From Candidatus Dojkabacteria bacterium (lineage in GTDB: Bacteria > Patescibacteriota > Dojkabacteria > SC72), in the NCBI GenBank assembly GCA_050950145.1, contig JBMNHB010000001.1:208511-272510 (forward strand): a DNA stretch of 64,000 nt, read 5' to 3'. The translations under genes were made by a program, and so were the position numbers. A model generated the notes under the pieces. The model ran no database searches. It worked only from the letters and a program-made list of their open reading frames with translations, and was not told the origin of the DNA. Below, in pieces: positions 2,969-63,481 of the stretch. The first letter of the stretch is position 1. Each line of letters begins with the position of its first letter.

Positions 2969-2985
2969 TATTAAAAAAGACAGAT

Positions 2986-34679: not shown

Positions 34680-35861
34680 ATGTCTAATCTTCACAACATA
34701 TATCCCAAAGTAGCAATAGTTGCTGATCAAATGACAGCTTTTGGTGGTGCAGATAGAGAAATGATATCAATGTTAAAAGTATTTCCAAAAGCAGACATAT
34801 TCACAGTACTCTTCTACAAAGAGAAATACCCAATGATAAAGAATAAGGTATATACAAGCTTTGTACAAAAACTAACAAAAATATTTGGTAAAAACTTCAG
34901 TAGGCATCTCAAAGTACTTAATCCTTTTGCTTATGAAAAATTTTCTTTAGATGGATATGACCTAGTAATATCAATATCAGCTGGATCTGGTAAATCTGTA
35001 ATTACAGGTATAGACCAACCTCATTTAGCAATGGTAATGACCCCTCCCAGAAGTCTTTGGGATAATGAACTCAATGTAAGAGGATCAAAACTTAAATGGT
35101 TCTACAAACCTCTTTCTCATATTCTTAACACATACCTAAGAGTATGGGATATTAGTATTGCAAAAAGGGTAGATTACTGGAGTGCAAATTCTAAATTTGT
35201 AGCAAGAAAAATTAAAAAGACATATGGAGTAGATGCCAAAGTACTCTATCCAGGTGTAGAAGAGAAGTATTTTAAACAAGTAAAAAATAGTAAAGAAGGT
35301 AAAAAGATTTTAGCTAGCCTCAAAGATAAATATGACATACCAGATGATTTTGTTTTAGTAGTATCTAGGCTTTACGACTACAAGAGAGTTGATTGGGCAA
35401 TACGATCATGTATTCAGAGTGGTGATAATTTAGTGATTGTAGGAGAAGGACCGGATAGGAGATATTTAGAGAAGATAGCAAAAGGACACAAGAATATCCA
35501 ATTTATTGGTTTTGTTAAAGATGAAGAAGTAAAAGTGCTATATGAAATTGCAAAAGTATTACTCTTCTGTGGAATTGAAGATTTTGGATTAGTACCCCTT
35601 GAAGCGATGGCATCAGGTACGCCTGTATTAGCATATGGATATGGAGGTGTTTTGGAAACAGTAAAAGAGGGTGTAACAGGTGAGTTTTTCCTTAGTCAAG
35701 ATGAACTAACTGATTTACTTAAGAATTACAAAAGAAACAGGTATAATGAGGAAGATATTGTAAAGCATGCCCAAGAGTTCTCAGAAGAAAAATTTTTAAT
35801 TAACTTTTCTAATTACATAAAAGAAATTTATGAAAAAGAAAAAGTATCCAGCATGGCTTAA
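34680..35861 (+). CDS. GT4 glycosyltransferase
   Basis: EDFGLVPLEAMASGTPVLAYGYGGVLETV is the Glycos_transf_1 signature. Confidence 0.8.
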   Translation: MSNLHNIYPKVAIVADQMTAFGGADREMISMLKVFPKADIFTVLFYKEKYPMIKNKVYTSFVQKLTKIFGKNFSRHLKVLNPFAYEKFSLDGYDLVISISAGSGKSVITGIDQPHLAMVMTPPRSLWDNELNVRGSKLKWFYKPLSHILNTYLRVWDISIAKRVDYWSANSKFVARKIKKTYGVDAKVLYPGVEEKYFKQVKNSKEGKKILASLKDKYDIPDDFVLVVSRLYDYKRVDWAIRSCIQSGDNLVIVGEGPDRRYLEKIAKGHKNIQFIGFVKDEEVKVLYEIAKVLLFCGIEDFGLVPLEAMASGTPVLAYGYGGVLETVKEGVTGEFFLSQDELTDLLKNYKRNRYNEEDIVKHAQEFSEEKFLINFSNYIKEIYEKEKVSSMA

Positions 35862-37014
35862 TGATATTAAAGTAGCAGTAGTCTATGAACCTCTGTATAA
35901 AATGGGTGGAGGAGAATTACATTTGAAATATATTCTTGATGCTTTTCCTAACTCAGAACTATTTACAGCATACTATGATCAAGAAATTGTTGAAGAGCAT
36001 TTCAAAGGTGTAAAAGTTCACTCTTCTTTTATGCAGAAATTGCCCTGGAAAGATAAATTAAGATATATATATCTCCTTCTTAATCCTTTGGCTTACAAAA
36101 GTTTCAACTTTAAAAATTATGATGTAATAATTTCACTCTCTTCTCATTTTGCTAAGTTTGCACATACAAATGGTGTACCACATATAGATGATTGCATGAC
36201 TCCTCCGAAATTTCTTTGGCAAAAAGATGATAGAACATTGAAAGATAAAAAGCAGTTGAGTGGTATAAATAGATTTTTCTTTGGGATATATTCCTTTTTT
36301 ATGGATACATTTTTTGAAAGGTTATGGCAAAAATGGGATAGGAATGCAGCAAGGAGATGTACAAGGATAATTGCTAATTCTGAGGTTGTAAAAAAGAGAA
36401 TTAAGAAATTCTATGATTTAGACTCTGATGTAATATATCCTCCTGTAGAAGTAAGTAAAATACTTGAATATCCTAAAGTTAATCGTAAAGAAAATTGGTA
36501 TCTCTATCTTGGCAGGGTAGAAAGATACAAAGGAGTACACCTTGCAATTAAAGCTTGTGATAGATTAGACCTACCACTTAAAATTGCAGGAGCAGGACAA
36601 GATCTAGAAGCTATGAAAGAACTAGTTGATAAACTTGGTGCAAAGGGGATAGTAAAGTTCTTAGGCTTTGTTTCAGAAGAAGAAAAATACGACCTAATGA
36701 GTAAAGCCAGAGCTTTGATTCTTCCAATTAGAGGAGAAGATTTTGGTATAGTACCAGTAGAAGCAAATGCTTTCGGTACACCTGTAATCGCATATAGGGA
36801 TGGTGGTGTGCTGGAGACAATATCAGAAGAAAATCCTGCTACAGGTGTTTTCTTTGATAAATATACAGTAGATTCTCTTGTTGAGGTTCTAAAAAACTTC
36901 AAACCAGAGAAATATACACATGATAACTGTGTAAAACAGGCACAAAACTTTGCTTCTGAAATATTCATTTACAAACTTCAGAACTATGTTAAAGACACTT
37001 TACAAGATAAGTAA
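35830..37014 (+). CDS. GT4 glycosyltransferase (paralog of the upstream gene)
   Basis: EDFGIVPVEANAFGTPVIAYRDGGVLETI. Overlaps the upstream GT4 by 32 nt. Confidence 0.8.
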   Translation: MKKKKYPAWLNDIKVAVVYEPLYKMGGGELHLKYILDAFPNSELFTAYYDQEIVEEHFKGVKVHSSFMQKLPWKDKLRYIYLLLNPLAYKSFNFKNYDVIISLSSHFAKFAHTNGVPHIDDCMTPPKFLWQKDDRTLKDKKQLSGINRFFFGIYSFFMDTFFERLWQKWDRNAARRCTRIIANSEVVKKRIKKFYDLDSDVIYPPVEVSKILEYPKVNRKENWYLYLGRVERYKGVHLAIKACDRLDLPLKIAGAGQDLEAMKELVDKLGAKGIVKFLGFVSEEEKYDLMSKARALILPIRGEDFGIVPVEANAFGTPVIAYRDGGVLETISEENPATGVFFDKYTVDSLVEVLKNFKPEKYTHDNCVKQAQNFASEIFIYKLQNYVKDTLQDK

Positions 37015-37642
37015 GAGATTACTAGATATTATCTTTTCTCTCTTTCTGTTAATTCTTTTTCTACCACTACTTCTTTTAGTGTCTTTCTTGATTTGGATCT
37101 CTGATAGAGGAGAGATATTTGTAAAAGAACCGCTAAGAAGAGGTTTAGATGGAAAGGAGTTTAGAATGTTTAAATTCCGAACAATGATTCCTAATGCACA
37201 TAAGGAATTGATAGAGAATCCTAACTATGCAACCTTGAAAAAGGAATGGGAGAAGAATGGAAATAAACTTTCTACAAAAGAGGATAGTAGAGTGACTTGG
37301 ATAGGTAGAATTCTTAGGAAAACAGATGTGGATGAATTACCTCAACTAATTAATGTCCTCTGGGGGGAGATGTCTCTTGTGGGTCCAAGACCAACATATA
37401 CATATGAGATGAAGGAACATCTGAGGAAGTATCCAGAAGATATTAAGTATTTAGAAAACATTTTTACTGTTAGACCTGGTATGACAGGAATATGGCAAGT
37501 ATCAGGTAGAAACAAAATTCCTTTTCACAAAAGATTAATTATGGATTCTAAGTATGTAGATCAAATGAACTTGTTTACTGATATTATAATTTTACTTAAA
37601 ACACCATATATTGTATTAACTAGGAAAGGAGCATATGAGTAG
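36986..37642 (+). CDS. Polyprenyl-phosphate hexose-1-phosphate transferase (bacterial sugar transferase, WbaP/WcaJ-like small form)
   Basis: N-terminal TM helix (LLDIIFSLFLLILFLPLLLLVSFLIW), then KEFRMFKFRTM and VDELPQLINVLWGEMSLVGPRP Bac_transf motifs. Start chosen at the internal ATG at 36986. Confidence 0.8.
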   Translation: MLKTLYKISKRLLDIIFSLFLLILFLPLLLLVSFLIWISDRGEIFVKEPLRRGLDGKEFRMFKFRTMIPNAHKELIENPNYATLKKEWEKNGNKLSTKEDSRVTWIGRILRKTDVDELPQLINVLWGEMSLVGPRPTYTYEMKEHLRKYPEDIKYLENIFTVRPGMTGIWQVSGRNKIPFHKRLIMDSKYVDQMNLFTDIIILLKTPYIVLTRKGAYE

Positions 37643-38243
37643 AGATATTGTTACTGTTATAAAATCGGTGAACTATTCAGAGGCAGATAAGGTGCTTACT
37701 GTGTTTGGAAAAGAGAGAGGGAAATTTGTTCTTTTTGCTAAGGGTATAAGGAAGATAAATAGTAAGAATAGGGGGAATATGCAGACTTTTTCTACAAGTA
37801 AAATATCTTTCTATGAGGGAAAAGGTATGCCTCTTCTTACAGAATCTGAATTGGTAGACAGTTTGGATTTAGACAATCTACATGTTACCAATGTGAAAAG
37901 AGTCCTGTTTATGCTGAATAAATTTCTTCAGGAAGGAGAGAGCTATCCAGAACTTTTTAATTCTTTACAAAGAGGTCTTAGGAAAGGGTTTGATACAGAG
38001 TCCACAAACAAGCTTAGGATGATATTTTTGAAAGAGATGGGTTTTTTAGATGATTTTACTCATTGTAAATGTTGTGGAAGTAGTGAAGATATTGTATATT
38101 TAGATGTAGAAAACTTTGCACTTGTGTGTAAAAATTGTTACAGTATACAAAAGGCAAAACCATTGGGAGATAAGCCTTATGAATCCAAAGTTTTAACTAA
38201 TGCTTTGGATAAATATATTAAAAAAGTAGTTGAAGAAATATAA
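37635..38243 (+). CDS. recO: DNA repair protein RecO
   Basis: N-terminal OB-fold VIKSVNYSEADKVLTVFGKERGKFVLFAKGIRK and C-terminal zinc motif CKCCGSS...CKNC. Confidence 0.75.
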   Translation: MSRDIVTVIKSVNYSEADKVLTVFGKERGKFVLFAKGIRKINSKNRGNMQTFSTSKISFYEGKGMPLLTESELVDSLDLDNLHVTNVKRVLFMLNKFLQEGESYPELFNSLQRGLRKGFDTESTNKLRMIFLKEMGFLDDFTHCKCCGSSEDIVYLDVENFALVCKNCYSIQKAKPLGDKPYESKVLTNALDKYIKKVVEEI

Positions 38244-40705
38244 TGAAGATAAAGACTGCCATTAAAATATTTTTACTTGTATTTCTTTCTTTTTTTATTC
38301 TTGATAGGGTTTCTTTAGCACAATATACACCAGATGTGGAGAATGTTATTACCTATGTCAATGTTGGTGCTGATATATATTCACAGATTACTTTAAGTCC
38401 TCAGAATGTAGAAATAACTCAACAATCTGAGGTGTTAATTAGAGCATATAATGGAGATACTACGCCGAAAGTTGGAAGAACAATTGAAATATATGTTGAT
38501 GGTTCTTCTGCAAATGTAACTATAGTTCAGCCACAACCTACTGATTCTACTGGTAGTGCTACTGGGTATATTAGCGCAACTGCTCCTGGGTCATATAGGA
38601 TATGTGGGAGGGATATTACAGGTGGAGGTTCTGTAGAAATACAGCAGTGTGAAATGCTGTTTGTTACTCCTGTTGCAGTTCCTGTAATGAATGCTGAACC
38701 ACAGTATACAGCTGGAACAAGTAATACTGTTTCTTGGAGTATTACAGGAACAAATCCATATCAATACTATGTAGAAGCCAGTACTGATTCTAATTTTGCT
38801 ACTATTGCAGGTAGTAGTGGATGGATATCTTCTACATCTGCGATTTTTAGTGGTCTTTCTAGTGGTGAGATTTATTACTATCGTGTTAAAGCAAGAAACC
38901 AGGGAGGGGGAGAGAGTAGTTGGTCTAATTCAGTGTATTCTGTGCAAGAGGCAAGTGCTCCACAAATTTCATTGATTAGTGTTACAAAACCAACGGGTGC
39001 AACAACAACTGACTTTGATCCTGAGTCAACAATAACTCTTACCTATCGGATAGAGGATAATATTGCTGTTGCTACAAGGGATTTATGGGTTGTTTTACCA
39101 TCAGGGGATAGAATAAAAGTTCTGTATACTCAGGTAATTAATGGTAATATTTGGAATGTAAGTATAAAGCTTGGAGATTTACCAAAAGACTCTTTAGGTA
39201 ACCTTTACTCTACATACAGTTTCTATATAGAAGCAACAGACAATGTTGGAAATAAAAGTTGGGATAATAGTGCAAGTGTGAATTTTGCAAAACCTTCAGT
39301 ACCACCAGTAGAGCCAATAGTACCATCAACTCCAGGTATTCCTGTATTGTTATCTCCTGAGGATAATCTTACACCGAGTTGGACATGGGTTCCTTCATAT
39401 GGTAGTGATGGTAGTATTGTAACTAAATATATAGTGGAATGGTGTCAGAATGAAGATTTTTCAGACTGTGAATCCAACTCTGTAGTTATTGATACCAACT
39501 CATTTACTCATACTTCAGAGCTTTCTGTCGGAAAATGGTACTTTAGAACAAGAGCTGTAAGTAAGGATGGTACATTAAGTGATTGGTCTGTTAAAGAGTT
39601 CATGATAAAGGGGGTAACGACTACTGACGAGAAGCCAGAACCTCCTACTCCCCCAGAACCTACAAAACCAAATATAGGGGGTTGGATTACGGATAATGTT
39701 GTAACTCCAATTAAAGATTTTGGAGAATCTATTCTAGAGAACACGATAGGAAAACTTGATGATGAAACAGTTCAAACAGTTACGGTTAGTAGTGTTGTCG
39801 CTAATGTTGCGGTAGGTATGGGATTGGTTATTAATATTTTAGGAACAATTCCATATATTATTGTTCAAGGAGTTTTAGCTATGTTGAGTTTATTAGGGTT
39901 TAGGGTAAAAGGTAATATCACTGGTTATGTCTATAACTCTATCACAAAAGATCCTCTTAAACAGGTTATTGTTAGAATCTATAACGAGAAAAATGAACTT
40001 GTCTGGACAGATGTTTCTGATTCTAATGGGCGATTTAGAACACCTGAGGTTGAGAATGGTAAATATTATATTCAACTAACAGCAAGAGAGCATAAATTTC
40101 CATCTTCTATTATCACTGGTCATTCAGACTTTCCACTGGAGGATGTGTATTTAGGACATATGTTTGAGGTTAAGGATGGTAAGATTCCTAGATTTTCAAT
40201 TCCAGTGGATCCTTTAGAGGTTAATAAGGTAAAGATGATAATGGAGAGATTTCTTTCCAGAACCAAATGGTTATGGAAACCACTTCACATTCTTTTGTTT
40301 GTCTTAGGTCTTTCATTTAGTGTATACGCAGTAAAGATTAATCCTGTTTGGTGGAACTATATGATTCTGTTCTTCTATATCCCATCTTTAGTAATGCTTT
40401 TACTTAGTTTATTTAGAAAATCTGAAAAGTATGGTGTTGTAAAGGATTCTTCAGGAAATATTCTTAAGAATGTAGTTATATCTTTAATTGATAGCGAATT
40501 TGGTAAGGTTGAAGCTACAAGGGTTAGTGATGATGCAGGTAGGTATAGATTCTTAATTGAGGGTAAAGGAGAGTATACTATTTCTGTTTCAGATACAAAC
40601 TATGTTTTAGTAGAACCTGAGAAGTATGAGAAGATAAAGGTGCATAGAGAAAGTACTACTATTCTTTCTCCAAATCTTATTGTTAAAAGTAGAACTCAGA
40701 ATTAA
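38243..40705 (+). CDS. Large surface protein: signal peptide, multiple fibronectin-III-like repeats, TM segments and two carboxypeptidase-regulatory-like (transthyretin-like) domains
   Basis: Repeated FN3-like ends (SGEIYYYRVKARNQGG, GKWYFRTRAVSKDG). CarbopepD_reg-like GNITGYVYNSITKDPLKQVIVRIYN and GVVKDSSGNILKNVVISLID. Hydrophobic helices between them. Confidence 0.6.
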   Translation: MKIKTAIKIFLLVFLSFFILDRVSLAQYTPDVENVITYVNVGADIYSQITLSPQNVEITQQSEVLIRAYNGDTTPKVGRTIEIYVDGSSANVTIVQPQPTDSTGSATGYISATAPGSYRICGRDITGGGSVEIQQCEMLFVTPVAVPVMNAEPQYTAGTSNTVSWSITGTNPYQYYVEASTDSNFATIAGSSGWISSTSAIFSGLSSGEIYYYRVKARNQGGGESSWSNSVYSVQEASAPQISLISVTKPTGATTTDFDPESTITLTYRIEDNIAVATRDLWVVLPSGDRIKVLYTQVINGNIWNVSIKLGDLPKDSLGNLYSTYSFYIEATDNVGNKSWDNSASVNFAKPSVPPVEPIVPSTPGIPVLLSPEDNLTPSWTWVPSYGSDGSIVTKYIVEWCQNEDFSDCESNSVVIDTNSFTHTSELSVGKWYFRTRAVSKDGTLSDWSVKEFMIKGVTTTDEKPEPPTPPEPTKPNIGGWITDNVVTPIKDFGESILENTIGKLDDETVQTVTVSSVVANVAVGMGLVINILGTIPYIIVQGVLAMLSLLGFRVKGNITGYVYNSITKDPLKQVIVRIYNEKNELVWTDVSDSNGRFRTPEVENGKYYIQLTAREHKFPSSIITGHSDFPLEDVYLGHMFEVKDGKIPRFSIPVDPLEVNKVKMIMERFLSRTKWLWKPLHILLFVLGLSFSVYAVKINPVWWNYMILFFYIPSLVMLLLSLFRKSEKYGVVKDSSGNILKNVVISLIDSEFGKVEATRVSDDAGRYRFLIEGKGEYTISVSDTNYVLVEPEKYEKIKVHRESTTILSPNLIVKSRTQN

Positions 40706-40755
40706 GTAAGTATTGAAAAATATCCATTATATTACTATAATTACAGCTGTTTAAT

Positions 40756-40828
40756 GGGTGCATAGCTCAATCGGTAGAGCAAACGACTCTTAATCGTTTG
40801 GTTCAGGGTTCGAGTCCCTGTGCACCCA
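40756..40828 (+). tRNA. tRNA-Lys (anticodon CUU); CCA not encoded
   Basis: Cloverleaf folded by hand: acceptor GGGTGCA/TGCACCC, D-arm GCTC...GAGC, anticodon stem AACGA/TCGTT with loop CTCTTAA, T-arm CAGGG-TTCGAGT-CCCTG, discriminator A. Confidence 0.85.
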
Positions 40829-40854
40829 TGTTTCCACGAGTTTATCTTTCTAAC

Positions 40855-41262
40855 TTAGCGATTTAGATATTCTTTAATTAATTCAATATCTGGAATATCT
40901 TTCTCTCTTCTTAGGTGTTCTTTTACTTTTAATAATACATCTAATTCTATATATCTAACTCCATCTATAATAGTTGTTTGTTTGATAAGGTCTTCGTATG
41001 TTAAATCTTTCATAAAGTCATCCATATACCATCTATCACTAAACTCTACTATTCCATTTGTATAGAGTATAGCTCCATATTCATTAGTTGTTTCAATAAC
41101 ATTATAGTTTCTAAGAAGTTCTAAAAGAGTTTCCTTATCAACTACTACATCTACATCATGACTTTCTTTTAAACCTAAAGCATTGAGAATTCCAGACCCT
41201 ATTACAACAGAATTCTCTTTATTTAATGATAGTTTTGCTAACTCTTCTTTAAAATCTAACAT
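40855..41262 (-). CDS. Minimal nucleotidyltransferase (Pol-beta superfamily) fold protein
   Basis: GSGILNALGLKESHDVDVVVD matches the GS...G...SDxD NTase motif. No HEPN partner is evident. Confidence 0.4.
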   Translation of the reverse strand: MLDFKEELAKLSLNKENSVVIGSGILNALGLKESHDVDVVVDKETLLELLRNYNVIETTNEYGAILYTNGIVEFSDRWYMDDFMKDLTYEDLIKQTTIIDGVRYIELDVLLKVKEHLRREKDIPDIELIKEYLNR

Positions 41263-41356: not shown

Positions 41357-41692
41357 ATGTTAGATATACTAAAAGGAAACAAACCATTATTCATAAAAGA
41401 GCTACATACAGTTCACAAAATGATTTCAACAAGAAAGACTTTTACAGGTAGGCATGTCAACTATATCTCAGAATGGTTGAAACTACTAAAATCTATTTCT
41501 TGGAAAATTTTTCATATTCGTAATATAGATCAAATAGAGTGGAGAAGGGTAATAGATGAAATAGATAAGGATATGATTAAGACAGATAAAAACAAAAAAG
41601 GATATCTAAGGATTATGAAAGAGAATAGGAGAGATGTTTTAGAAAGAGATATTAATGCGTTGGAGGGGAGGATAAATAGTAATTACAATTAA
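41357..41692 (+). CDS. Hypothetical protein inside a direct-repeat-flanked cassette
   Basis: ORF only; no recognisable motif. Confidence 0.3.
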   Translation: MLDILKGNKPLFIKELHTVHKMISTRKTFTGRHVNYISEWLKLLKSISWKIFHIRNIDQIEWRRVIDEIDKDMIKTDKNKKGYLRIMKENRRDVLERDINALEGRINSNYN

Positions 41693-41752: not shown

Positions 41753-42169
41753 ATGTTGTATAATCCTACTTGTACATTAACAAATTACATCTTGTTTACT
41801 AATTTACTAATTAGAAAAGGAGAAATAATGACTAAAAAGTCACTTGTTATTTTAAATAACCATGGAAGGTTCTTAATTTCCTGTAAAGAAAACCCCATTA
41901 AGTTTATTTTACGGAATGTAGAAAAAAACATGGTTGTAAAGTTGAAATCTAAGGATTCAGTTGGTTGGGAAGTGATGGATGATATTGGAAAAGGGATGAA
42001 ACATCCAAGTGGATTTCTCCTTACTCCGTCAGTTGTTTACTTCCCGTTTTCTGTTGAACCAGACCCGAATAAGGGTGTGCAGATAGTACTAGATATCTCT
42101 AGAACTGAGAAGGGGCCTAAAGTCCTATCTCTTGAATGTTCCTCACCTTTTAAGGTGAGAAGGTTATAA
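41753..42169 (+). CDS. Hypothetical protein. The likely start is ATG 41828 (MTKKSLVIL)
   Basis: ORF only; no recognisable motif. Confidence 0.3.
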   Translation: MLYNPTCTLTNYILFTNLLIRKGEIMTKKSLVILNNHGRFLISCKENPIKFILRNVEKNMVVKLKSKDSVGWEVMDDIGKGMKHPSGFLLTPSVVYFPFSVEPDPNKGVQIVLDISRTEKGPKVLSLECSSPFKVRRL

Positions 42170-42263: not shown

Positions 42264-43898
42264 TTAAATCTTCTTACTCATATATAACTCGCCTCTCTTG
42301 TATCCTAACTTCTTGTAATATTCTCTAGTACCAATAGCAGATATAACAGAGATTTTCTGATAACCTTTCTTTTTAGAAATATCTTCTGCTATCTTTATCA
42401 ACTCCTTACCTAATCCTAAGTGTTGAGATTCTCCCTGTTTACTCTCTCTATCTATTCCTACAACCTTACCATAAACATGTACCTCTCTAATGATAGAGGT
42501 ATTTTGTAACTCCTCTAATCTATGTTTTCTGCTTAATATCTTCTTAGGTAAAAACAATCTCAAAAATCCACATATCTTATCACTCTTCTTTGTTTTGTAT
42601 GAAATGAAAATATCTGCACCTACAGTACTCTTGTATGTAATCTTCTCTAACTTAATATCATTCTTAGAAATTTCTTCTCCCTTAATCTCCCTACTTCTAA
42701 TATCTTCTGATTCAATACCTTTCTTTCTTAAATACTCCTCAACAACCTCTCTAAGATTAGTCTTCTTGTTTCCTGCAGCAATCTCTGTAGAAGGTATATC
42801 CCTAATTACTCTAGACAACCTACAGTATCTAGGAGTAGAAGCAATACACTCACCAACAACCCTTATCAATGTCTTCTCATCATATGGCTTGTGTTTACCT
42901 TCTTTGTATAAATCATACAACTCAGTACCCTCAATCACAGAAGTGGGATAGATTTTCATCTCATCAGGGTGATATGGTTCTATAAACAATTCTTTGTATC
43001 CAGTAATATCTAACTTAGGTGTAGAGAGATAGAGGTTGGGCATCCAATGACCATGTATCTTAAAACCAAACATTCTTAACAATTCAAAAGCTCTCTTCGT
43101 ATCCTCATTATCTCTTCCTGTCTCATTCTCTCTCAGTACCTTGTCCGACAGAGATTGAATACCAATCTGTATCTTTGTAGCACCAAGTCTTCTGAGGTAC
43201 ATTAACTCTCCAGCTGTGATAAAGTCAGGTCTTGTTTCAAGAACTAAACCAACATTTCTACAATATGCTGTTTCATTCTTTATTTGCTCCTTCTCTAAAT
43301 CTTTCCAATCAGTTTGTTCCATTGTAAACTCTCTTGGTTGTATATATTCCTTTGTACTCTTCTTAACTCTGTTTAATGCTCTAAAACATTCTTTCACAAA
43401 CCATATCTTGTAATTACCATCATATGCAGAGAATGTACCACCTAAGATAATTAACTCAACCTTCTCAATATTATGACCAACATTCTTTAATGCAACCAAC
43501 CTGTTATACACCTGTGCATACGGATCAAACTTCAACTTTAATGCTCTTTGTGCACCGGGTTCTGAAGCAATATAGCTCTTGGGCATACTTCTATCATTAG
43601 GACAGAATATACAGTTACCTGGACAGTAGTAGGGCATAGTCATAACAGTAACAACAGCTACACCAGAATTTGTTCTAGTAGGTTTCAATCTAATTCTTTT
43701 TTCAATTAGAGATATATCTATTTTAGAAAAATCTTTCTTTACTGAATCAAACATTTTTACAAGTTCATCATTACGATATATCCCACCATTATCTTTTTTG
43801 TAGTTTCTAAGAATCTTGTTTAGAGAATTCTCATTCCATTTTTTCTGAGAAACTATTTCTGAAAAAATATCTTTTATTTTATCTATATTTTTCTTCAT
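42264..43898 (-). CDS. elp3: Elp3-family radical-SAM/GNAT protein (tRNA U34 carboxymethyl-modification enzyme homolog)
   Basis: Radical SAM region PYYCPGNCIFCPND...ELIILGGTFS parallels Elp3 CPGGPDS...EFIVMGGTF. C-terminal GNAT ESQHLGLGKELIKIAE...ISVISAIGTREYYKKLGY parallels Elp3 HQGYG...AVISGVGVRHYYRKLGY. Confidence 0.8.
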   Translation of the reverse strand: MKKNIDKIKDIFSEIVSQKKWNENSLNKILRNYKKDNGGIYRNDELVKMFDSVKKDFSKIDISLIEKRIRLKPTRTNSGVAVVTVMTMPYYCPGNCIFCPNDRSMPKSYIASEPGAQRALKLKFDPYAQVYNRLVALKNVGHNIEKVELIILGGTFSAYDGNYKIWFVKECFRALNRVKKSTKEYIQPREFTMEQTDWKDLEKEQIKNETAYCRNVGLVLETRPDFITAGELMYLRRLGATKIQIGIQSLSDKVLRENETGRDNEDTKRAFELLRMFGFKIHGHWMPNLYLSTPKLDITGYKELFIEPYHPDEMKIYPTSVIEGTELYDLYKEGKHKPYDEKTLIRVVGECIASTPRYCRLSRVIRDIPSTEIAAGNKKTNLREVVEEYLRKKGIESEDIRSREIKGEEISKNDIKLEKITYKSTVGADIFISYKTKKSDKICGFLRLFLPKKILSRKHRLEELQNTSIIREVHVYGKVVGIDRESKQGESQHLGLGKELIKIAEDISKKKGYQKISVISAIGTREYYKKLGYKRGELYMSKKI

Positions 43899-43944: not shown

Positions 43945-44556
43945 ATGAAAAAACCAAAAATTGCACAAGAGAGAACATTAGTGTTAATCAAACCTGATGT
44001 ATTACAAAGACAGTTAGTAGGTGAGATACTGTCTAGATTTGAGAGGAAGGGTATTAAGATGACTGCAATCAAGATGCTTAATGCTACTAAAGAACAGGTA
44101 GGTGAACACTATATTGATGAAGAATCATATTTAATTGAAACTGGTGAGAAAGCAAAAAAAGGTGCTATTGCAAGAGGTGAAGATATTACTAACTGGAATT
44201 CATTAGAACAAGGGAAGAAGATTAGGCAGAGGAATATTAATTATCTTACATGTGGTCCGATTGTGGCTATGGTTTTTGAAGGTTTTGGAGTAATATCTCA
44301 GGTTAGGAAGATTCTAGGTAGTGCTAGTCCAGCAGAAGGAGATATTGGAACTATTAGAGATGACTATTCTATTGATACATATGCTCTTGCAGATTTCTTA
44401 GATAGGTCAACTATGACTATGTTACATGCTTCTGATTCAGTAGAGAATGCAGAGAGAGAATTGAAGATATGGTTTAAGGAGAGTGAGATATGTAACAACT
44501 ACGAGACTGGTGTAGAGAAGATTTTCTATGATGCAGAGTGGAGTAAGGGGAAGTAG
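43945..44556 (+). CDS. ndk: Nucleoside diphosphate kinase (long form with insertion and C-terminal extension)
   Basis: TLVLIKPDVLQRQLVGEILSRFERKGIKM, GPIVAMVFEGFGVISQVRKILG, GTIRDDYS and MLHASDSVENAEREL (catalytic His region). Confidence 0.8.
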   Translation: MKKPKIAQERTLVLIKPDVLQRQLVGEILSRFERKGIKMTAIKMLNATKEQVGEHYIDEESYLIETGEKAKKGAIARGEDITNWNSLEQGKKIRQRNINYLTCGPIVAMVFEGFGVISQVRKILGSASPAEGDIGTIRDDYSIDTYALADFLDRSTMTMLHASDSVENAERELKIWFKESEICNNYETGVEKIFYDAEWSKGK

Positions 44557-44580: not shown

Positions 44581-45204
44581 TTACATCTTTAATATCTCAT
44601 TAATAACTTCTTTTTTCTTTAATATATCTGCTGTTTTCTTTGGAAGAGTAGATAAAAATTTCTTTAAAGCTTTAAAATCTTTCCTCATATCTTCTTTAAG
44701 ATTAGGATTGTAAAGTGCAGCTGCAGGATGATACATAGCAAATATTGGAATACCTGTTGGATGTTCAAATGCTTGTCCATGAGAAGCTGTAATACTTGCA
44801 CCTGGTACAAACCTACCTAATGAATGTCTTCCTAGAGTTACAATTACTTTAGGTTTTACAAATAATAATTCTGCATTTAACCATACTCTACATGCATCCT
44901 TTTCTTCTTCTTGTGGTTCTCTGTTAGAAGGTGGTCTATATTTAACAACATTACTTACATATACCTCTTCTCTTGTATATCCAATACTCTGTAACAATTC
45001 ATCTAAGAATTTTCCAGCAGAACCTACAAATGGTCTTCCTTGTAGATCTTCATGTCTGCCAGGAGCTTCTCCTATAAAGAGTATTCCAGATGATGGAGGA
45101 GTTATTTCATATACTGGTTGGGTAGCTACTTCCTTTAATCCACAACTATTATGTACAGCATAGTATTCATGTAGATCTTTGAGCGTTTTGAAATCAGTTT
45201 TCAT
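44581..45204 (-). CDS. Uracil-DNA glycosylase, family 4/5-like
   Basis: GEAPGRHEDLQGRPFVGSAGKFLDELL is the family-4 UDG motif. Confidence 0.8.
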   Translation of the reverse strand: MKTDFKTLKDLHEYYAVHNSCGLKEVATQPVYEITPPSSGILFIGEAPGRHEDLQGRPFVGSAGKFLDELLQSIGYTREEVYVSNVVKYRPPSNREPQEEEKDACRVWLNAELLFVKPKVIVTLGRHSLGRFVPGASITASHGQAFEHPTGIPIFAMYHPAAALYNPNLKEDMRKDFKALKKFLSTLPKKTADILKKKEVINEILKM

Positions 45205-46330: not shown

Positions 46331-46771
46331 TTACTTGGTAACCCAAAAAGTTACCTGCCCTATCTTTGTATTGGGATATATCTTAACAGGTTTAACAACA
46401 TGAATAGTTAGAGTAGGTTTCTGTATAGAACCCAGGTCTATTAAATCAGCAGTAATATTTACAAAGATACCAAGTCTGCCTGTAGATGATCTTCCTTTAA
46501 TAATAGGTACGAAATATTTACTACCAATTGTTTCAATAGTTCTACCAATATATATTTTCTTAGGACTAAGTGTTAAACCTTGAGTAGGTATAACTAACTC
46601 TTCTAATTCATTATCCTTTGTAGGATCTAATAGATCATCTTTGTATGTATAGAGTACATTATCAATATGAAAATCATATGAATTAGTTTCAACATCCTTA
46701 ATATTAAAAGGATCTATTACTATTCTCCCTTTTTTTACTTCTTTTTTTATCTCACTTCCTGTTAATATCAT
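46331..46771 (-). CDS. dCTP deaminase/dUTPase-superfamily protein (short form)
   Basis: MILTGSEIKKEVKKGRIVIDPF matches the MILSDRDI...IEPF Dcd N-terminus. Confidence 0.65.
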   Translation of the reverse strand: MILTGSEIKKEVKKGRIVIDPFNIKDVETNSYDFHIDNVLYTYKDDLLDPTKDNELEELVIPTQGLTLSPKKIYIGRTIETIGSKYFVPIIKGRSSTGRLGIFVNITADLIDLGSIQKPTLTIHVVKPVKIYPNTKIGQVTFWVTK

Positions 46772-47289
46772 TTTGTTTTCTCATTGTATAATTTACTAGG
46801 ATATGGTTCATTTTTTGTTGCATAGAACTCTATATCCTCAATCTCTTTCTTTCCTTTTGGAACCCAGAATGTAACCTGTCCTATCTCCATATTAGGATAT
46901 ATTCTTAAATTTTGCACTACAGTAATCTCTAAAGTCCATCTATGAGCTTTACCTAATTGTCCTAGATCTGCTGTGATTTGAAGAAACATACCTAACTTAG
47001 CAATCCTATTCCTTCCAATTAATGATGTAACGTACTCCTTACTACCAATTGTTTCAACTGTTGTGCCAAGATATAGTCTTCTTGGTTCAAGTACATATCC
47101 TTTAGCTGGAATTTTAACCTTTCTTGTTTTAGGTTTCTTCTTTTTATCTCCAACTTGTAATACTTCTACAAGTGTATCTCCTAGGTGATAGATATAGCTG
47201 TTGGGTTTTAAGCATTTCTCATCAAATGGATCTATGATAATATTTCCTTTTTTAACTTCTTTCTCTATCTCTTTGGCAGTTAGTATCAT
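46768..47289 (-). CDS. dCTP deaminase/dUTPase-superfamily protein (paralog with a Lys-rich insertion)
   Basis: MILTAKEIEKEVKKGNIIIDPFDEKCLKPNSY. Overlaps the downstream paralog by 4 nt. Confidence 0.65.
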   Translation of the reverse strand: MILTAKEIEKEVKKGNIIIDPFDEKCLKPNSYIYHLGDTLVEVLQVGDKKKKPKTRKVKIPAKGYVLEPRRLYLGTTVETIGSKEYVTSLIGRNRIAKLGMFLQITADLGQLGKAHRWTLEITVVQNLRIYPNMEIGQVTFWVPKGKKEIEDIEFYATKNEPYPSKLYNEKTK

Positions 47290-47344: not shown

Positions 47345-47821
47345 CTATTCTAGTTTAACACCTTTTTCTAAATCTAGTAATTTTTTCTTTATCTCAACAC
47401 CTCCTCTATATCCTATCATTGCTCCACTTGTAGAGATTACTCTGTGACAAGGTATTAGTATGGGTAGGGGATTCCTATTACACACCATACCTACCGATCT
47501 ATATGCTCTAGAATTGTGTACTTCTCTAGCTATATCTTTGTATGTAATAGTTTCTCCATATGGAATCTTTTTTAATATTTTCATTACATCTAAAAAGAAT
47601 GTAGAGGCTGAGGTGTAGTATATATTAATATCAAAAGTTTTTCTTTTTCCATCTAGATATTCATTAATCTGTTTGATTGTTTTTCTTTTAAGAGGGGTAT
47701 CTTTCTCTATCCATGATGGATCATATCTTTCACCATCATATACAACTGCTATCACCTTATTATCTTTTTCACCTATTCCAATTCTTCCAATCTTAGTATC
47801 ATAGAAAAATACTGTTACCAT
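47345..47821 (-). CDS. ogt: Methylated-DNA--protein-cysteine methyltransferase
   Basis: IPCHRVI active-site motif, plus a helix-turn-helix region upstream. Confidence 0.8.
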   Translation of the reverse strand: MVTVFFYDTKIGRIGIGEKDNKVIAVVYDGERYDPSWIEKDTPLKRKTIKQINEYLDGKRKTFDINIYYTSASTFFLDVMKILKKIPYGETITYKDIAREVHNSRAYRSVGMVCNRNPLPILIPCHRVISTSGAMIGYRGGVEIKKKLLDLEKGVKLE

Positions 47822-48184: not shown

Positions 48185-49612
48185 ATGGAAGAGAAAAAGA
48201 TAACAAGTAGAGAAGAAGATTTCTCACAATGGTATTTAGATGTAATTAGAGTAGCAGAACTTGTTGAACACGGTCCTGTTAGAGGTACTATGATTATCAG
48301 ACCATACGGATATGCAATCTGGGAAAATATTCAAAAAGAATTTGATAAAAGAATTAAAGCAACAGGTGTAGAAAATGCATACTTTCCTCTTTTCATACCT
48401 AATGAATTTTTACACAGAGAAGCTAAACATGTAGAGGGTTTCTCTCCTGAAGTTGTTGTTGTAACTCATGCAGGAGGTGAAGAATTAAAAGAACCTTTTG
48501 TAGTTAGACCAACATCTGAAACAATTATGTATGATGCATATTCAAGATGGGTAGAATCATACAAAGATCTTCCAATATTAATTAACCAATGGGCAAATGT
48601 AGTTAGATGGGAAGTTAGACCAAGATTGTTTTTAAGAAGTACAGAGTTCCTTTGGCAGGAAGGACACACAGCACATGCTACACCAGAGGAGGCAGATGAA
48701 AGAGCACAGCAGATGTTGTTTGAATACAAAAAATTTGCAGAAGAGTTTTTAGCAATACCTGTTTTTGTTGGTAAGAAGACAGATTCAGAAAGATTTGCAG
48801 GTGCAGATATTACATATACAACTGAAGCTATGATGCAGGATGGTAAGGCTCTCCAATTTGCAACATCACATAATTTAGGTGATAAATTTGCAAAGGCATT
48901 TGGTATTAAGTTTGTAGATGAGGATGGTGATATTAAGTATTGTTACCAAACAAGCTGGGGAATGAGTACAAGAACTTTAGGAGGATTAATTATGGTTCAT
49001 AGTGATGATAATGGTTTTGTTGTTCCTCCAAAAGTAGCACCATATGAGGTTGTCATAATTCCTGTTTGGCCAAAACCTGAAGATAGGGAGATGGTAGATA
49101 AAGAGGTTGAGAAATTAAAAGAAACTCTTGAGAAAGATTTTAGAGTTAAGGTTGATAATACTGATTTAAGAGTAGGTGAAAAATTCTACAAGTGGGAGAA
49201 GAAAGGTGCACCTTTGAGATTAGAGATTGGTCCTAGAGATATCAATGAAGGTCATGTTGTTCTTGCAAGAAGAGATACAGGTGAGAAGGTTACTGTAAAG
49301 ATGAATGACTTAACAAAGGAGATTAAAAGGTTGTTAGAAGATATTCAGAAGAATCTTTTTGATATTGCAAAAAAGAGAATGGATGAAAATACTGTAAGGG
49401 TTGAAAATTATGATGAGTTTAAGAAAGCAATTGAAGACAGAAAGTTTGTATTAGGATATTGGGCAGGTAGTAGTGATGATGAGGCTAAGCTAAAAGAAGA
49501 GACAATGGCAACAGTAAGGTGTTTCCCATTTGAACATAAAGATGAGAGAGGAAAATGTTTCTATACAGGTAAAGAAGGTGCTAAACTTGCTCTATTGGCA
49601 AGGTCATATTAA
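48185..49612 (+). CDS. proS: Prolyl-tRNA synthetase, archaeal/eukaryotic-type architecture (no INS editing domain)
   Basis: EDFSQWYLDVIRVAELVEHGPVRGTMIIRPYGYAIWE N-terminus, class II motifs and a C-terminal zinc-like domain. Length 475 aa. Confidence 0.9.
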   Translation: MEEKKITSREEDFSQWYLDVIRVAELVEHGPVRGTMIIRPYGYAIWENIQKEFDKRIKATGVENAYFPLFIPNEFLHREAKHVEGFSPEVVVVTHAGGEELKEPFVVRPTSETIMYDAYSRWVESYKDLPILINQWANVVRWEVRPRLFLRSTEFLWQEGHTAHATPEEADERAQQMLFEYKKFAEEFLAIPVFVGKKTDSERFAGADITYTTEAMMQDGKALQFATSHNLGDKFAKAFGIKFVDEDGDIKYCYQTSWGMSTRTLGGLIMVHSDDNGFVVPPKVAPYEVVIIPVWPKPEDREMVDKEVEKLKETLEKDFRVKVDNTDLRVGEKFYKWEKKGAPLRLEIGPRDINEGHVVLARRDTGEKVTVKMNDLTKEIKRLLEDIQKNLFDIAKKRMDENTVRVENYDEFKKAIEDRKFVLGYWAGSSDDEAKLKEETMATVRCFPFEHKDERGKCFYTGKEGAKLALLARSY

Positions 49613-53491: not shown

Positions 53492-53507
53492 ACACTTATT
53501 ACTTAAT

Positions 53508-54339: not shown

Positions 54340-55401
54340 TTAACTAACTATTCCACCACCTAAAACAATATCATCTTTGTAAAAAACTACTGACTGTCCT
54401 TTGGTAATTGCTCTTTGTGGTTTTTCAAAAACAACTTTTACTTTGTCTTCCATTGGATATATTCTAGCTTTACTCTCTTTAGCTTTGTATCTAATCTTTG
54501 CTTCAACTTCCATTTCTTTTTCTAACTTTTCAAAAACAATCCAGTTTAAACTAGTAGCAACTAATTCTTTTGAAAAAAGTTCATCATTACTTCCTAATAC
54601 AACCTGATTCTTTTCACTATCAATATCAATTACAAACAGAGGTGTTTTAGCTGATATCCCTAAACCCTTTCTTTGTCCAATTGTATACTTAGCACTACCT
54701 TTATGATATCCAAGCACTTCTCCATTGGTATTTACAATCTCACCTTTCTTCATTGGTGTAGTAGAGTTCTCTTGTATGAATCTAAAATGATTGTTGTCTG
54801 GAACAAAACATACCTCCTGACTATCTGGTTTGTTAGCAGTAGTAAAACCATTCTCTTCTGCAATCTTTCTAACTTCTTCTTTACTGTATTCACCTAAAGG
54901 GAATATTGTCTTAGCAAGTAGTTCTTGAGTAAGGTTGTAGAGCATGTAAGATTGATCTTTCCGTTCATCCTTTCCTTTTTTAAGTAGATATTCTACTTGG
55001 TCTCCATCTGTTACTTTCTCAATTCTTGCATAGTGTCCTGTTGCAATATATTCAATTCCTAATTCTTCTGCTTTGTCTATCATTGCTCCAAACTTAATAT
55101 ATTTGTTACATGCTACACATGGGTTAGGAGTTCTTCCTTCTTGATATTCTTCTATGAAGTAATCAATGACATACTTTTTAAATTGTTCTTTCATGTTAAA
55201 GACATGATGTTCAATACCGAGTCTTTTGGCAACTTCTTTTGCATCTTCTACTTGATTATTGTTACAGTAGTCATGTAGTTGCATTGTAGCACCAATTACT
55301 TCGTATCCTTCTTGCTGAAGTAGTAGAGCTGCAATACTACTATCAACACCACCACTCATACCTAGTAGTACTTTTGGTTTTTTAGAAATATTCTTTTTCA
55401 T
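54340..55401 (-). CDS. mnmA: tRNA-specific 2-thiouridylase MnmA
   Basis: PP-loop MSGGVDSSIAALLL and the conserved C-terminal domain. Length 353 aa. Confidence 0.9.
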   Translation of the reverse strand: MKKNISKKPKVLLGMSGGVDSSIAALLLQQEGYEVIGATMQLHDYCNNNQVEDAKEVAKRLGIEHHVFNMKEQFKKYVIDYFIEEYQEGRTPNPCVACNKYIKFGAMIDKAEELGIEYIATGHYARIEKVTDGDQVEYLLKKGKDERKDQSYMLYNLTQELLAKTIFPLGEYSKEEVRKIAEENGFTTANKPDSQEVCFVPDNNHFRFIQENSTTPMKKGEIVNTNGEVLGYHKGSAKYTIGQRKGLGISAKTPLFVIDIDSEKNQVVLGSNDELFSKELVATSLNWIVFEKLEKEMEVEAKIRYKAKESKARIYPMEDKVKVVFEKPQRAITKGQSVVFYKDDIVLGGGIVS

Positions 55402-63364: not shown

Positions 63365-63441
63365 TTGGCGGAATGGACGGGGATCGAACCCGCAACCTTC
63401 GCAGTGACAGTGCGATGCTCTAACCAATTGAGCTACCACTC
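63365..63441 (-). tRNA. tRNA-Asp (anticodon GUC); CCA encoded
   Basis: The reverse complement folds as acceptor GGAGTGG/CCATTCC (one GU), D-arm GCTC-AATTGGTTA-GAGC, anticodon stem TCGCA/TGCGA with loop CTGTCAC, T-arm GCGGG-TTCGATC-CCCGT, and discriminator G + CCA. Confidence 0.85.
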
Positions 63442-63481
63442 CATATCTAGAAGAACAGTATATCAAAATATATCTTTAATC

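What the first reader, a model, noticed from the sequence alone, without database searches (positions are those of the whole stretch)
42264..43898. Bacterial Elp3 homolog encoded together with MnmA suggests an archaeal/eukaryotic-style wobble-uridine pathway
ORF 42264-43898 has both halves of Elp3: the radical-SAM cluster region YYCPGNCIFCPND...ILGGTFS and a C-terminal GNAT with ISVISAIGTREYYKKLGY.

Elp3 homologs are rare in bacteria. The same window encodes MnmA (54340-55401, U34 2-thiolation) and tRNA-Lys(CUU). No MnmE/MnmG is visible here.

If Elp3 is active, this organism may build cm5-type U34 modifications by the Elongator-like route instead of the usual bacterial MnmEG route. This is an inference from gene content within one window only.
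Basis: partly seen in the sequence, partly recalled or inferred. Interest (0 to 1): 0.5.

Follow-up and report, generated by a model that had tools for sequence, protein, structure and literature searches.

The report
Genuine Elp3 gene in CPR bacterium
The ORF is a real, intact, conserved Elp3 (the tRNA wobble-uridine carboxymethylating enzyme of archaea and eukaryotes) in a Candidatus Dojkabacteria genome, but such bacterial Elp3 genes are common in uncultured lineages, are already named automatically, and their proposed replacement of MnmEG is already published and cannot be tested from this window.

Summary
Observation confirmed. It scores 490 bits on TIGR01211 (cutoff 350) and E 1e-104 to solved M. 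infernus Elp3. The AF2 model matches only Elp3 structures (TM 0.80-0.92). Every experimentally defined catalytic residue is present. dN/dS is 0.07-0.10.

The host is a Patescibacteria/CPR bacterium (Candidatus Dojkabacteria; SecA, Ddl, RecO and MnmA are in the window). Elp3 is a syntenic core gene in more than 20 Dojkabacteria species. A narrow scan found it in at least 148 bacterial species genomes, including other Patescibacteria, many Anaerolineae and some Myxococcota. "Rare in bacteria" therefore holds only for cultured organisms and the Elongator literature. NCBI and JGI already name these proteins Elp3.

MnmA is real but lies 10.4 kb and 13 genes away, with no operon. tRNA-Lys(CUU) has C34 and is not a substrate. 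MnmE/MnmG are absent from the window, but the genome-wide question is untestable here. The "Elp3 instead of MnmEG" idea is already published for Dehalococcoides.

Side finding: in a sister clade, Elp3 sits head-to-head with a Trm9-like methyltransferase. This is independent support for an Elongator-type (m)cm5U route in bacteria. That partner was not found in this window's sub-lineage.

Verdict: new member of a known kind, of modest interest.

The parts
42264..43898 (-). elp3: 544-aa tRNA U34 C5-carboxymethylating radical-SAM/GNAT enzyme (stop codon 42264-42266)
   Evidence: ORF. TIGR01211 490 bits against cutoff 350, full length. PDB Elp3 hits E 1e-104 to 1e-81. AF2 pLDDT 86.9, and the Foldseek top 11 are all Elp3. 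dN/dS 0.065-0.105.
43674..43898 (-). N-terminal basic helical extension (about residues 1-75; 91 residues precede Cys1; K+R 25%). Putative tRNA-binding arm, as in archaeal and eukaryotic Elp3; absent from DmcElp3.
   Evidence: Composition. Predicted helices 2-17, 25-31, 43-56, 59-69. The best fold match is tRNA-bound human Elp3 8ptx_C over 564 columns. The role of the MinElp3 N-terminus is described in PMC6367351.
43059..43631 (-). Radical-SAM core (residues 90-280), including the SAM-binding GGTF at residues 153-156
   Evidence: Pfam PF04055 6.4e-12. G153 and G154 are invariant in 79 sequences.
43602..43625 (-). [4Fe-4S] cluster motif C92-x3-C96-x2-C99 (CPGNCIFC)
   Evidence: Aligns with DmcElp3 C23/C27/C30 and the MinElp3 triad. 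Invariant in 79 sequences. The CX3CX2C spacing is shared by all 78 bacterial sequences, against CX4CX2C in MinElp3.
43314..43367 (-). 18-residue lineage-specific insertion (residues about 178-195) in the radical-SAM domain. It is longer (up to about 80 aa) in other Patescibacteria and absent in Chloroflexota, MinElp3 and DmcElp3.
   Evidence: Alignment blocks. No regular secondary structure is assigned to residues 178-197 in the model.
42726..42968 (-). Radical_SAM_C domain (residues 311-391)
   Evidence: Pfam PF16199, 72.6 bits against cutoff 31.9.
42267..42656 (-). C-terminal GNAT/KAT domain (about residues 415-544) with E472, H474, the acetyl-CoA loop Q492-H493-L-G495-L-G497 (42408-42425) and Y527 (42318-42320). 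K146 and K280 from the rSAM half complete the acetyl-CoA pocket.
   Evidence: Residue map to DmcElp3 K77/K193/E386/H388/Y441 and MinElp3 K150/K266/Q461/H463/Y517. All are invariant in 79 sequences. Mutational data are in PMC6367351.
43909..43912 (-). Shine-Dalgarno-like AGGA, 10 nt upstream of the ATG. It lies in a 46-bp intergenic region shared with the divergent ndk gene (43945-44556).
   Evidence: Read directly from the sequence. The promoter scan is not above chance: 8 sites found against 9.0 expected.
54340..55401 (-). mnmA: tRNA U34 2-thiolase. A possible pathway partner by inference only; not linked to elp3.
   Evidence: NF001138, 451 bits against cutoff 284. It is 10.4 kb and 13 ORFs away from elp3, and linkage is seen in only L002 and L028.

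Best explanation
The ORF encodes a functional, stand-alone Elp3 of a Candidatus Dojkabacteria (Patescibacteria/CPR) bacterium.

By homology, the mechanism would be as follows. The basic N-terminal arm and the cleft between the two domains bind tRNA. tRNA binding triggers acetyl-CoA hydrolysis in the GNAT/KAT domain (K146, K280, E472, Y527). The [4Fe-4S] cluster on C92/C96/C99 reductively cleaves SAM to a 5'-deoxyadenosyl radical. That radical generates an acetyl radical, which adds to C5 of the wobble uridine and gives cm5U34.

The gene is a vertically inherited core gene of this lineage. It belongs to a large bacterial Elp3 clade (Patescibacteria, Anaerolineae and others) that is distinct from the one characterised bacterial enzyme, DmcElp3.

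Shown here: identity, intactness, conservation, fold and lineage distribution.

Inferred only:
- the activity itself;
- that, with the unlinked MnmA, the product on Lys/Glu/Gln tRNAs is a cm5s2U-type nucleoside;
- that this substitutes for the MnmEG route.
For: **Family membership**
- Full-length family score well above cutoff.
- E 1e-104 to solved archaeal Elp3 and 1e-83 to eukaryotic Elp3.
- All mutationally defined residues and the Cys triad are invariant.
- AF2 model: pLDDT 86.9, pTM 0.86. Its 11 best PDB matches are all Elp3 (E 1e-42 to 1e-32, TM 0.80-0.92). The next hit is a generic radical-SAM enzyme at 1e-7.

**Selection and inheritance**
- Strong purifying selection: dN/dS 0.065-0.105 at unsaturated dS of 0.36-0.47.
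- The gene order surface protein-RecO...Elp3-Ndk-UDG is conserved in more than 20 Dojkabacteria species, and GC content matches the surroundings.
- An N-terminal extension is present.

**Pathway context**
- MnmE/MnmG are not in the window.
- The literature states that bacterial Elp3 coincides with lack of MnmE/MnmG.
- In the sister clade, Elp3 is paired head-to-head with a methyltransferase whose best solved relative is Trm9. That family keeps Trm9's D72, H115/H116, W145, W168 and R241 equivalents. This mirrors the Elp3-Trm9 cluster of Sulfolobus.
Against: - No xcm5U nucleoside has ever been demonstrated in any bacterium (PMC7663514).
- The only bacterial Elp3 assayed, DmcElp3, is weakly active.
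- The genome outside the 64-kb window is unknown, so mnmE/mnmG may be present.
- MnmA is unlinked.
- The Trm9-like partner is absent from the window and from +-10 kb of Elp3 in core Dojkabacteria. It does not appear on the large core-Dojkabacteria contigs by contig-length fingerprint. The end product in this organism is therefore unknown.
- The central-linker cysteines (Zn site in Dmc, disulfide in Min) are missing, and there is an 18-aa insertion of unknown effect.
Confidence: 0.75

Rival explanations
1. Elp3 is active but coexists with MnmE/MnmG elsewhere in the genome. It then modifies a different subset of U34 tRNAs (as Elongator does for 11 yeast tRNAs). This would be an addition to the bacterial route, not a replacement of it.
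For: Only 64 kb of the genome was seen. Absence of MnmE/MnmG from the window says nothing about the rest. Many Elp3-bearing Chloroflexota have 3-6 Mb genomes, where loss of MnmEG is not expected a priori.
Against: The literature states that Elp3 presence coincides with lack of MnmE/MnmG in bacteria and viruses (PMC9433433). CPR genomes are strongly reduced, which makes two parallel xm5U systems less likely (inference).
Confidence: 0.3
2. The protein has another substrate: a protein lysine, or another RNA or tRNA position. The Elp3 fold would be reused for something other than U34 carboxymethylation.
For: Activity is untested. There is a lineage-specific 18-aa insertion and the central-linker cysteines are lost. 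Elp3 was historically annotated as a histone acetyltransferase (PDB names).
Against: All residues needed for tRNA-triggered acetyl-CoA hydrolysis and the rSAM triad are invariant. The tRNA-binding N-terminus is retained. Neighbourhood linkage to a Trm9-like cm5U methyltransferase in the sister clade points to U34 chemistry. [quoted passage not shown]
Confidence: 0.05
3. The gene is a decaying relic of a horizontal transfer from archaea and is no longer functional.
For: Elp3 is patchy among bacteria. The window holds several archaeal-flavoured genes: class-I ProRS, family-4 UDG and a Trm14-like methyltransferase.
Against: The ORF is intact. dN/dS is 0.07-0.10. Catalytic residues are invariant. 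Synteny is conserved across more than 20 species. Composition is native.
Confidence: 0.02

Closest known systems
Archaeal stand-alone Elp3 (Methanocaldococcus infernus / M. jannaschii; PDB 6ia8, 6iad, 6iaz)
   Same: Best sequence match (E 1e-104, about 44% identity on the trimmed alignment). Same rSAM + Radical_SAM_C + KAT architecture. Extended basic N-terminus. No Elp1,2,4-6 partners are expected. All catalytic residues are shared, with E472 in place of Min Q461.
   Different: The window protein has CX3CX2C instead of CX4CX2C and lacks the 5-aa insertion after the cluster motif. It has an 18-aa insertion at about residues 178-195. It lacks the CxCxxC cysteines of the central linker. The host is a bacterium, and the 2-thiolase in view is bacterial MnmA rather than archaeal NcsA.
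Dehalococcoides mccartyi Elp3 (DmcElp3; PDB 5l7j, 5l7l, 6ia6), the only characterised bacterial Elp3
   Same: Bacterial host. Same domains and catalytic residues (K77, K193, E386, H388, Y441 correspond to K146, K280, E472, H474, Y527). Same CX3CX2C spacing.
   Different: DmcElp3 lacks the N-terminal tRNA-binding extension, binds tRNA about 28-fold more weakly than MinElp3, and has about 5-fold lower induced hydrolysis activity (PMC6367351). The window protein retains a 91-residue N-terminal region. The two share only 38% identity. In the NJ tree Dmc lies outside the Patescibacteria + Anaerolineae clade and is closer to MinElp3 (51%). Dmc has a Zn site that is absent here.
Eukaryotic Elp3, the catalytic subunit of Elongator (PDB 8ptx, 6qk7, 8avg)
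   Same: Same fold. The best Foldseek hit is tRNA-bound human Elp3 (E 9.5e-42, TMq 0.80), including the N-terminal helices. Like yeast Elp3, the window protein has no central-linker cysteines.
   Different: No Elp1/2/4/5/6 scaffold is expected. Identity is 30-34%.
MnmE-MnmG (GidA), the canonical bacterial xm5U34 system
   Same: Same target atom (C5 of U34) and same physiological role. Both work in concert with MnmA 2-thiolation.
   Different: The proteins and chemistry are unrelated: GTPase/FAD/folate with glycine giving cmnm5U, against radical-SAM/acetyl-CoA giving cm5U. Neither gene is present in the window.
MnmL/YtqA (TIGR01212) radical-SAM tRNA modification proteins
   Same: Related radical-SAM + Radical_SAM_C core.
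   Different: Scores only 52.7 bits against a cutoff of 180, over residues 178-394. MnmL/YtqA has no GNAT domain. The window protein is not a member.

Membership tests
Elp3 (TIGR01211 / KEGG ELP3) | Full-length profile score above the curated cutoff | tested here: met
   490.2 bits against cutoff 350, profile positions 4-522 of 522.
Elp3 (TIGR01211 / KEGG ELP3) | Radical-SAM domain with three cluster-ligating cysteines and a SAM-binding GGTF motif | tested here: met
   C92/C96/C99 and G153-G154-T-F align with the Dmc and Min residues and are invariant in 79 sequences. PF04055 and PF16199 are above gathering score.
Elp3 (TIGR01211 / KEGG ELP3) | C-terminal GNAT/KAT domain with an acetyl-CoA loop (Q-H-x-G-x-G) and the residues required for tRNA-induced acetyl-CoA hydrolysis (Min K150, K266, Q461, Y517) | tested here: met
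   K146, K280, E472 (E as in Dmc), Y527 and Q492-H493-x-G495-x-G497 are all present and invariant. Mutational basis is in PMC6367351. The generic Pfam GNAT models are just sub-threshold.
Elp3 (TIGR01211 / KEGG ELP3) | Three-dimensional arrangement of the rSAM and KAT domains forming one body | tested here: met
   AF2 pLDDT 86.9, pTM 0.86. TM 0.80-0.92 to human, yeast, mouse, archaeal and Dmc Elp3. There is then a gap from E 1e-32 to 1e-7.
Elp3 (TIGR01211 / KEGG ELP3) | Basic N-terminal tRNA-binding extension (archaeal/eukaryotic type) | tested here: met
   91 residues precede Cys1, with 25% K+R and four predicted helices. The extension aligns structurally with tRNA-bound human Elp3. The binding function itself was not tested.
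Elp3 (TIGR01211 / KEGG ELP3) | Catalysis of cm5U34 formation on tRNA using SAM and acetyl-CoA | not testable with these tools
   Requires biochemistry or LC-MS. No bacterial xcm5U has been reported (PMC7663514).
   Absent from the 64-kb window and from 1.3 Mb of related loci flanks, but no tool gives whole genomes. The literature claims co-absence for other Elp3-bearing bacteria.
   mnmA is 10.4 kb and 13 ORFs away. Linkage is seen in only 2 related loci. No Trm9-like gene is in the window.
   Present head-to-head with Elp3 in 8 sister-clade loci and in 2 further Dojkabacteria-labelled contigs. Not found in the window, nor within +-10 kb of Elp3 in core Dojkabacteria, nor on their large contigs by fingerprint.
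MnmL/YtqA (TIGR01212) | Profile score above cutoff | tested here: not met
   52.7 bits against cutoff 180.

The most novel reading that the evidence does not exclude
Patescibacteria (including this Dojkabacterium), Anaerolineae and some other bacteria carry their own vertically inherited Elp3 clade. It has a full tRNA-binding N-terminus and is often paired with a Trm9-like methyltransferase. Together with bacterial MnmA it would build a chimeric, Elongator-type (m)cm5s2U34 pathway that replaces MnmEG. These would be the first bacterial xcm5U nucleosides. The clade would also offer a more representative, and possibly more active, bacterial Elp3 model than DmcElp3.
Probability: 0.4. Interest if true: 0.55.

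Novelty: new member of a known kind. Interest (0 to 1): 0.33.

Why it matters
For genome annotation this is routine. PGAP's TIGR01211 model and JGI's KO assignment already name these proteins.

It matters modestly for the tRNA-modification field. Reviews still describe bacterial Elp3 as confined to Dehalococcoides, and no xcm5U has been demonstrated in any bacterium. The data here show three things:
- a large bacterial Elp3 clade exists;
- unlike DmcElp3, it keeps the tRNA-binding N-terminus;
- in many genomes it is paired with a Trm9-like methyltransferase.

That makes the existence of an Elongator-type wobble pathway in bacteria directly testable, by expressing these small stand-alone enzymes. 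It also points to a possible hybrid with the bacterial MnmA thiolase.

Tried and rejected
1. **Whole-genome test for mnmE/mnmG.** No tool returns whole genomes. The exact protein is on record only on an 8.9-kb JGI contig. tblastn of E. coli MnmE/MnmG against the window and 1.3 Mb of related loci found only generic GTPase and FAD-motif hits, which is uninformative about the genome.

2. **Literature link between Elp3 or MnmG and CPR/Patescibacteria.** Nothing relevant was found. Glatt 2016 (PMC5018218) is not held.

3. **Promoter and terminator scan around elp3.** Not above chance.

4. **Window methyltransferases (61239-62009, 2986-3627) as Trm9 candidates.** Only generic class-I methyltransferase matches. 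Rejected.

5. **Neighbourhood of Elp3 in Chloroflexota.** The recurrent neighbours were not scanned against any family library. From their sequences one looks like a luciferase-like oxidoreductase and one like a NUDIX hydrolase, and none looks tRNA-related.

6. **Contig-length fingerprinting for a Trm9-like gene on core-Dojkabacteria contigs.** No match. This is only weak negative evidence: just the top 120 hits are listed, and cluster statistics cover representatives only.

7. **Pseudogene or HGT-island reading.** Rejected on dN/dS, synteny and composition.

8. **Phylogeny.** The NJ tree has a single archaeal outgroup. The origin of the bacterial clade (ancient, or transferred from archaea) is left open.
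Full report
**1. Observation**

Window 42264-43898 holds an uninterrupted ATG-to-TAA ORF of 544 codons on the minus strand. The finding did not give a strand. All three quoted peptide strings are present.

The protein matches NCBIfam TIGR01211 (ELP3) end to end: 490.2 bits against a curated cutoff of 350, profile positions 4-522 of 522. The next family, MnmL/YtqA, scores 52.7 bits against a cutoff of 180. Pfam Radical_SAM and Radical_SAM_C pass their gathering scores, and the generic GNAT models fall just below theirs.

Against PDB sequences the hits are Elp3 only:
- M. infernus Elp3: 9.5e-104
- D. mccartyi Elp3: 3.5e-89
- yeast, human and mouse Elp3: about 1e-83

MnmA at 54340-55401 (minus strand) is real (451 bits against a cutoff of 284). 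So are tRNA-Lys(CUU) at 40755-40829 and tRNA-Asp(GUC) at 63366-63442.

**2. The organism**

The window is 29-35% GC throughout, and the elp3 segment is not compositionally different. It encodes SecA, D-Ala-D-Ala ligase, RecO and MnmA, so the host is a bacterium.

The closest Elp3 relatives (93-58% identity) come from genomes labelled Candidatus Dojkabacteria or Patescibacteria. Many are already named 'elongator complex protein 3' (JGI) or 'tRNA uridine(34) ... radical SAM/GNAT enzyme Elp3' (NCBI).

In the species-representative genome collection, the best matches are Dojkabacteria MAGs at 92-94% identity (L001-L004). Several MAG titles, such as 'uncultured Candidatus Saccharibacteria' and 'Pseudomonadales', look like mislabels. 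The exact protein is on record only on an 8.9-kb JGI metagenome contig.

**3. Is it an intact, working-type Elp3?**

I aligned 77 bacterial Elp3 proteins translated from the fetched loci with the MinElp3 and DmcElp3 chains.

The mapping reproduces the published numbering. A +16 offset on the 6ia8 chain gives K150, K266, Q461, H463 and Y517. The window protein therefore has:
- C92/C96/C99, the cluster ligands;
- K146, K280, E472, H474 and Y527;
- the acetyl-CoA loop Q492-H493-x-G495-x-G497.

All are invariant in 79 sequences. The functional meaning of these residues comes from PMC6367351.

An AlphaFold2 model built on 44 sequences has pLDDT 86.9 and pTM 0.86. Its 11 best PDB matches are all Elp3, with E 9.5e-42 to 2.3e-32 and TM 0.80-0.92. 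The best is tRNA-bound human Elp3. The next hit, a generic radical-SAM enzyme, is at 1e-7.

Against the four nearest orthologs, dN/dS is 0.065-0.105 at dS 0.36-0.47, which is strong purifying selection.

An AGGA lies 10 nt upstream of the ATG, in a 46-bp region shared with the divergent ndk gene. The promoter scan is no better than chance.

**4. Lineage features**

- All 78 bacterial sequences, DmcElp3 included, have the canonical CX3CX2C spacing and lack the 5-residue insertion that follows the motif in MinElp3 (CX4CX2C).
- Dojkabacteria Elp3 carries an 18-residue insertion at about residues 178-195. It is longer in Nomurabacteria, WWE3 and others, and absent in Chloroflexota, Min and Dmc.
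- Dojkabacteria Elp3 lacks the CxCxxC cysteines of the central linker, which form a Zn site in Dmc and a disulfide in Min.
- Like archaeal and eukaryotic Elp3, and unlike DmcElp3, it has a long N-terminal region: 91 residues before Cys1, 25% K+R, helical in the model. In MinElp3 this arm is needed for high-affinity tRNA binding and acetyl-CoA hydrolysis.
- In a distance tree, the window protein sits inside a Dojkabacteria clade. Other Patescibacteria and assorted bacteria come next, then a large Anaerolineae clade. DmcElp3 lies outside and is closer to MinElp3 (51% identity) than to the window protein (38%). With only one archaeal sequence, this topology is tentative.

**5. Surroundings**

The order surface protein - RecO ... 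Elp3 - Ndk - family-4 UDG is conserved in more than 20 Dojkabacteria species. Elp3 is therefore a stable, vertically inherited gene there.

MnmA is 10.4 kb away, with 13 ORFs of both orientations in between:
- ndk, udg and a gene of unknown function;
- two dCTP-deaminase-like genes and an Ogt-like gene;
- proS and three genes of unknown function;
- a three-gene DNA-methyltransferase cassette.

MnmA lies within 10 kb of Elp3 only in L002 and L028. The cassette at 51831-54281 has no counterpart in any related locus. 'Encoded together with MnmA' is therefore not supported as linkage.

tRNA-Lys(CUU) carries C34 and is not a substrate of a U34 enzyme (established knowledge). E. coli MnmE and MnmG give no tblastn hit in the window, even at E<=10.

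**6. How rare is it, and how new is the idea?**

The Elongator literature calls DmcElp3 'a rare example of bacterial Elp3s'. [quoted passage not shown]

The scan used only six exact peptide patterns from this one protein. Even so, it found relatives in 148 species-representative bacterial genomes: Dojkabacteria, Microgenomates, Nomurabacteria, WWE3, many Anaerolineae/Ardenticatenaceae/Promineifilaceae, Myxococcota and others. So the gene is common in uncultured lineages and is routinely auto-annotated.

I found no paper that links Elp3 to CPR. [quoted passage not shown]

Whether this particular genome lacks mnmE/mnmG cannot be decided from 64 kb with the tools available.

**7. Independent functional clue found on the way**

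In the sister clade, a 240-260-aa class-I methyltransferase lies head-to-head with Elp3. The loci are L030, L032, L034, L036, L037, L038, L040 and L046, which is 8 of about 10.

A profile of this family finds Trm9 of the Yarrowia Trm9-Trm112 complex (5cm2_Z) as its best solved relative. The match has E 1.1e-11 and covers profile positions 29-229 of 249, including the region after the Rossmann core. Generic methyltransferases align over the core only.

The family's invariant D53, H139/H140, W169, W203 and R211 align with ScTrm9 D72, H115/H116, W145, W168 and R241. D72, H116, W145, W168 and R241 are required for mcm5U formation, while the H115A mutant is only mildly impaired. ScTrm9 Y243 is not conserved and is Cys in this family.

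JGI labels many members TRM9. Two members from Dojkabacteria-labelled genomes are again divergent from a 588-aa Radical_SAM + Radical_SAM_C gene.

A 2017 review stated that no such methyltransferases are detectable in bacterial genomes, and that Elp3 and Trm9 are clustered in Sulfolobus.

This neighbourhood evidence supports the view that bacterial Elp3 enzymes make cm5U34, which is then esterified. However, the Trm9-like gene is absent from the window and from +-10 kb of Elp3 in core Dojkabacteria. It did not show up on their large contigs either. The final nucleoside in this organism therefore remains open: cm5(s2)U, ncm5-type, or something else.

**8. Verdict**

The mechanistic reading (stand-alone Elp3 forming cm5U34, possibly combined with MnmA thiolation) is the best-supported one. 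It rests on homology and, for the clade, on gene neighbourhood.

The specific claims of linkage with MnmA and of MnmEG replacement are, respectively, unsupported and untestable here, and the replacement idea is not new.

This is a new member of a known kind. Interest is modest. It is raised slightly by two things: the mismatch between the literature and the real distribution of bacterial Elp3, and the Elp3/Trm9-like pairing, which makes a bacterial Elongator-type pathway directly testable.

Noticed in passing
L030 350-1132, L032 8404-9180, L034 8032-8781, L036 ~2261-3019, L037 9145-9918, L038 8731-9450, L040 1059-1802, L046 9222-10058; also L083 10001-10744 and L084 2760-3470: A Trm9-like class-I SAM methyltransferase lies head-to-head with Elp3 in a sister clade of bacterial Elp3 (Nomurabacteria, WWE3, some Dojkabacteria, Myxococcota, Multivoradales). 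Its best solved relative is Trm9 (5cm2_Z), and most Trm9 active-site residues are conserved. A 2017 review said no such methyltransferases exist in bacteria. It was not found in the window.
   Followed up: yes
window 51831-54281 (minus strand): A three-gene cassette: a Dam-family N6-adenine methyltransferase (51831-52733), a DUF6996/DUF6997 protein (52730-53491, possibly the endonuclease), and a second CcrM-like adenine methyltransferase (53508-54281). It has no counterpart in any of about 30 related Dojkabacteria loci. It is likely a strain-specific restriction-modification insertion between MnmA and its usual neighbours.
   Followed up: partly
window 46331-46771 and 46768-47289 (minus strand): Two tandem, overlapping dCTP-deaminase-like (PF22769) genes next to an Ogt-like gene (47345-47821), a family-4 UDG (44581-45204) and Ndk (43945-44556). 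Together they form a small nucleotide-hygiene and DNA-repair neighbourhood, conserved in close relatives.
   Followed up: partly
window 48185-49612, 44581-45204, 56927-57694, 55423-56052: Several archaeal-flavoured genes besides Elp3: a class-I (archaeal/eukaryotic-type) ProRS, a type-4 UDG whose best model is 'Arch_udg', a Trm14-like tRNA m2G6-type methyltransferase lacking the N-terminal part, and a 2-phosphoglycerate-kinase-like P-loop protein adjacent to MnmA.
   Followed up: no
window 42264-43898; alignment of L001-L080: All 78 bacterial Elp3 sequences use the canonical CX3CX2C spacing, against CX4CX2C plus a 5-aa insertion in MinElp3. Patescibacterial Elp3s carry a variable insertion of 18 to about 80 aa after the 'ALN(D/R)' helix. 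Dojkabacteria lack the central-linker CxCxxC cysteines. DmcElp3 appears atypical for bacterial Elp3s: it has no N-terminus and is closer to archaeal sequences.
   Followed up: partly
window 572-26000 and 34680-37642: From N-terminal sequence only, many ORFs across this region look like glycosyltransferases, sugar-nucleotide enzymes and membrane proteins (cell-envelope glycan synthesis). None was scanned against a family library. An 820-aa surface protein with FN3, Big_1 and CarboxypepD_reg domains (38243-40705) lies nearby and is conserved beside RecO in Dojkabacteria.
   Followed up: no
window 40855-41262, 41357-41692, 41753-42169: Three small poorly conserved ORFs lie between tRNA-Lys(CUU) and the 3' end of elp3. 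The first has a weak DUF6036 nucleotidyltransferase signature (GSG...DVD). The other two match no family and are absent or diverged in relatives. This may be a variable spot next to the tRNA gene.
   Followed up: no
L002, L005, L006, L008, L009 etc.; L031, L037, L040, L046: Record titles of several MAGs ('uncultured Candidatus Saccharibacteria', 'Gammaproteobacteria', 'Pseudomonadales') disagree with their gene content. L002 neighbours are 90-100% identical to this Dojkabacteria window. These are probably taxonomic mislabels in the public records.
   Followed up: no
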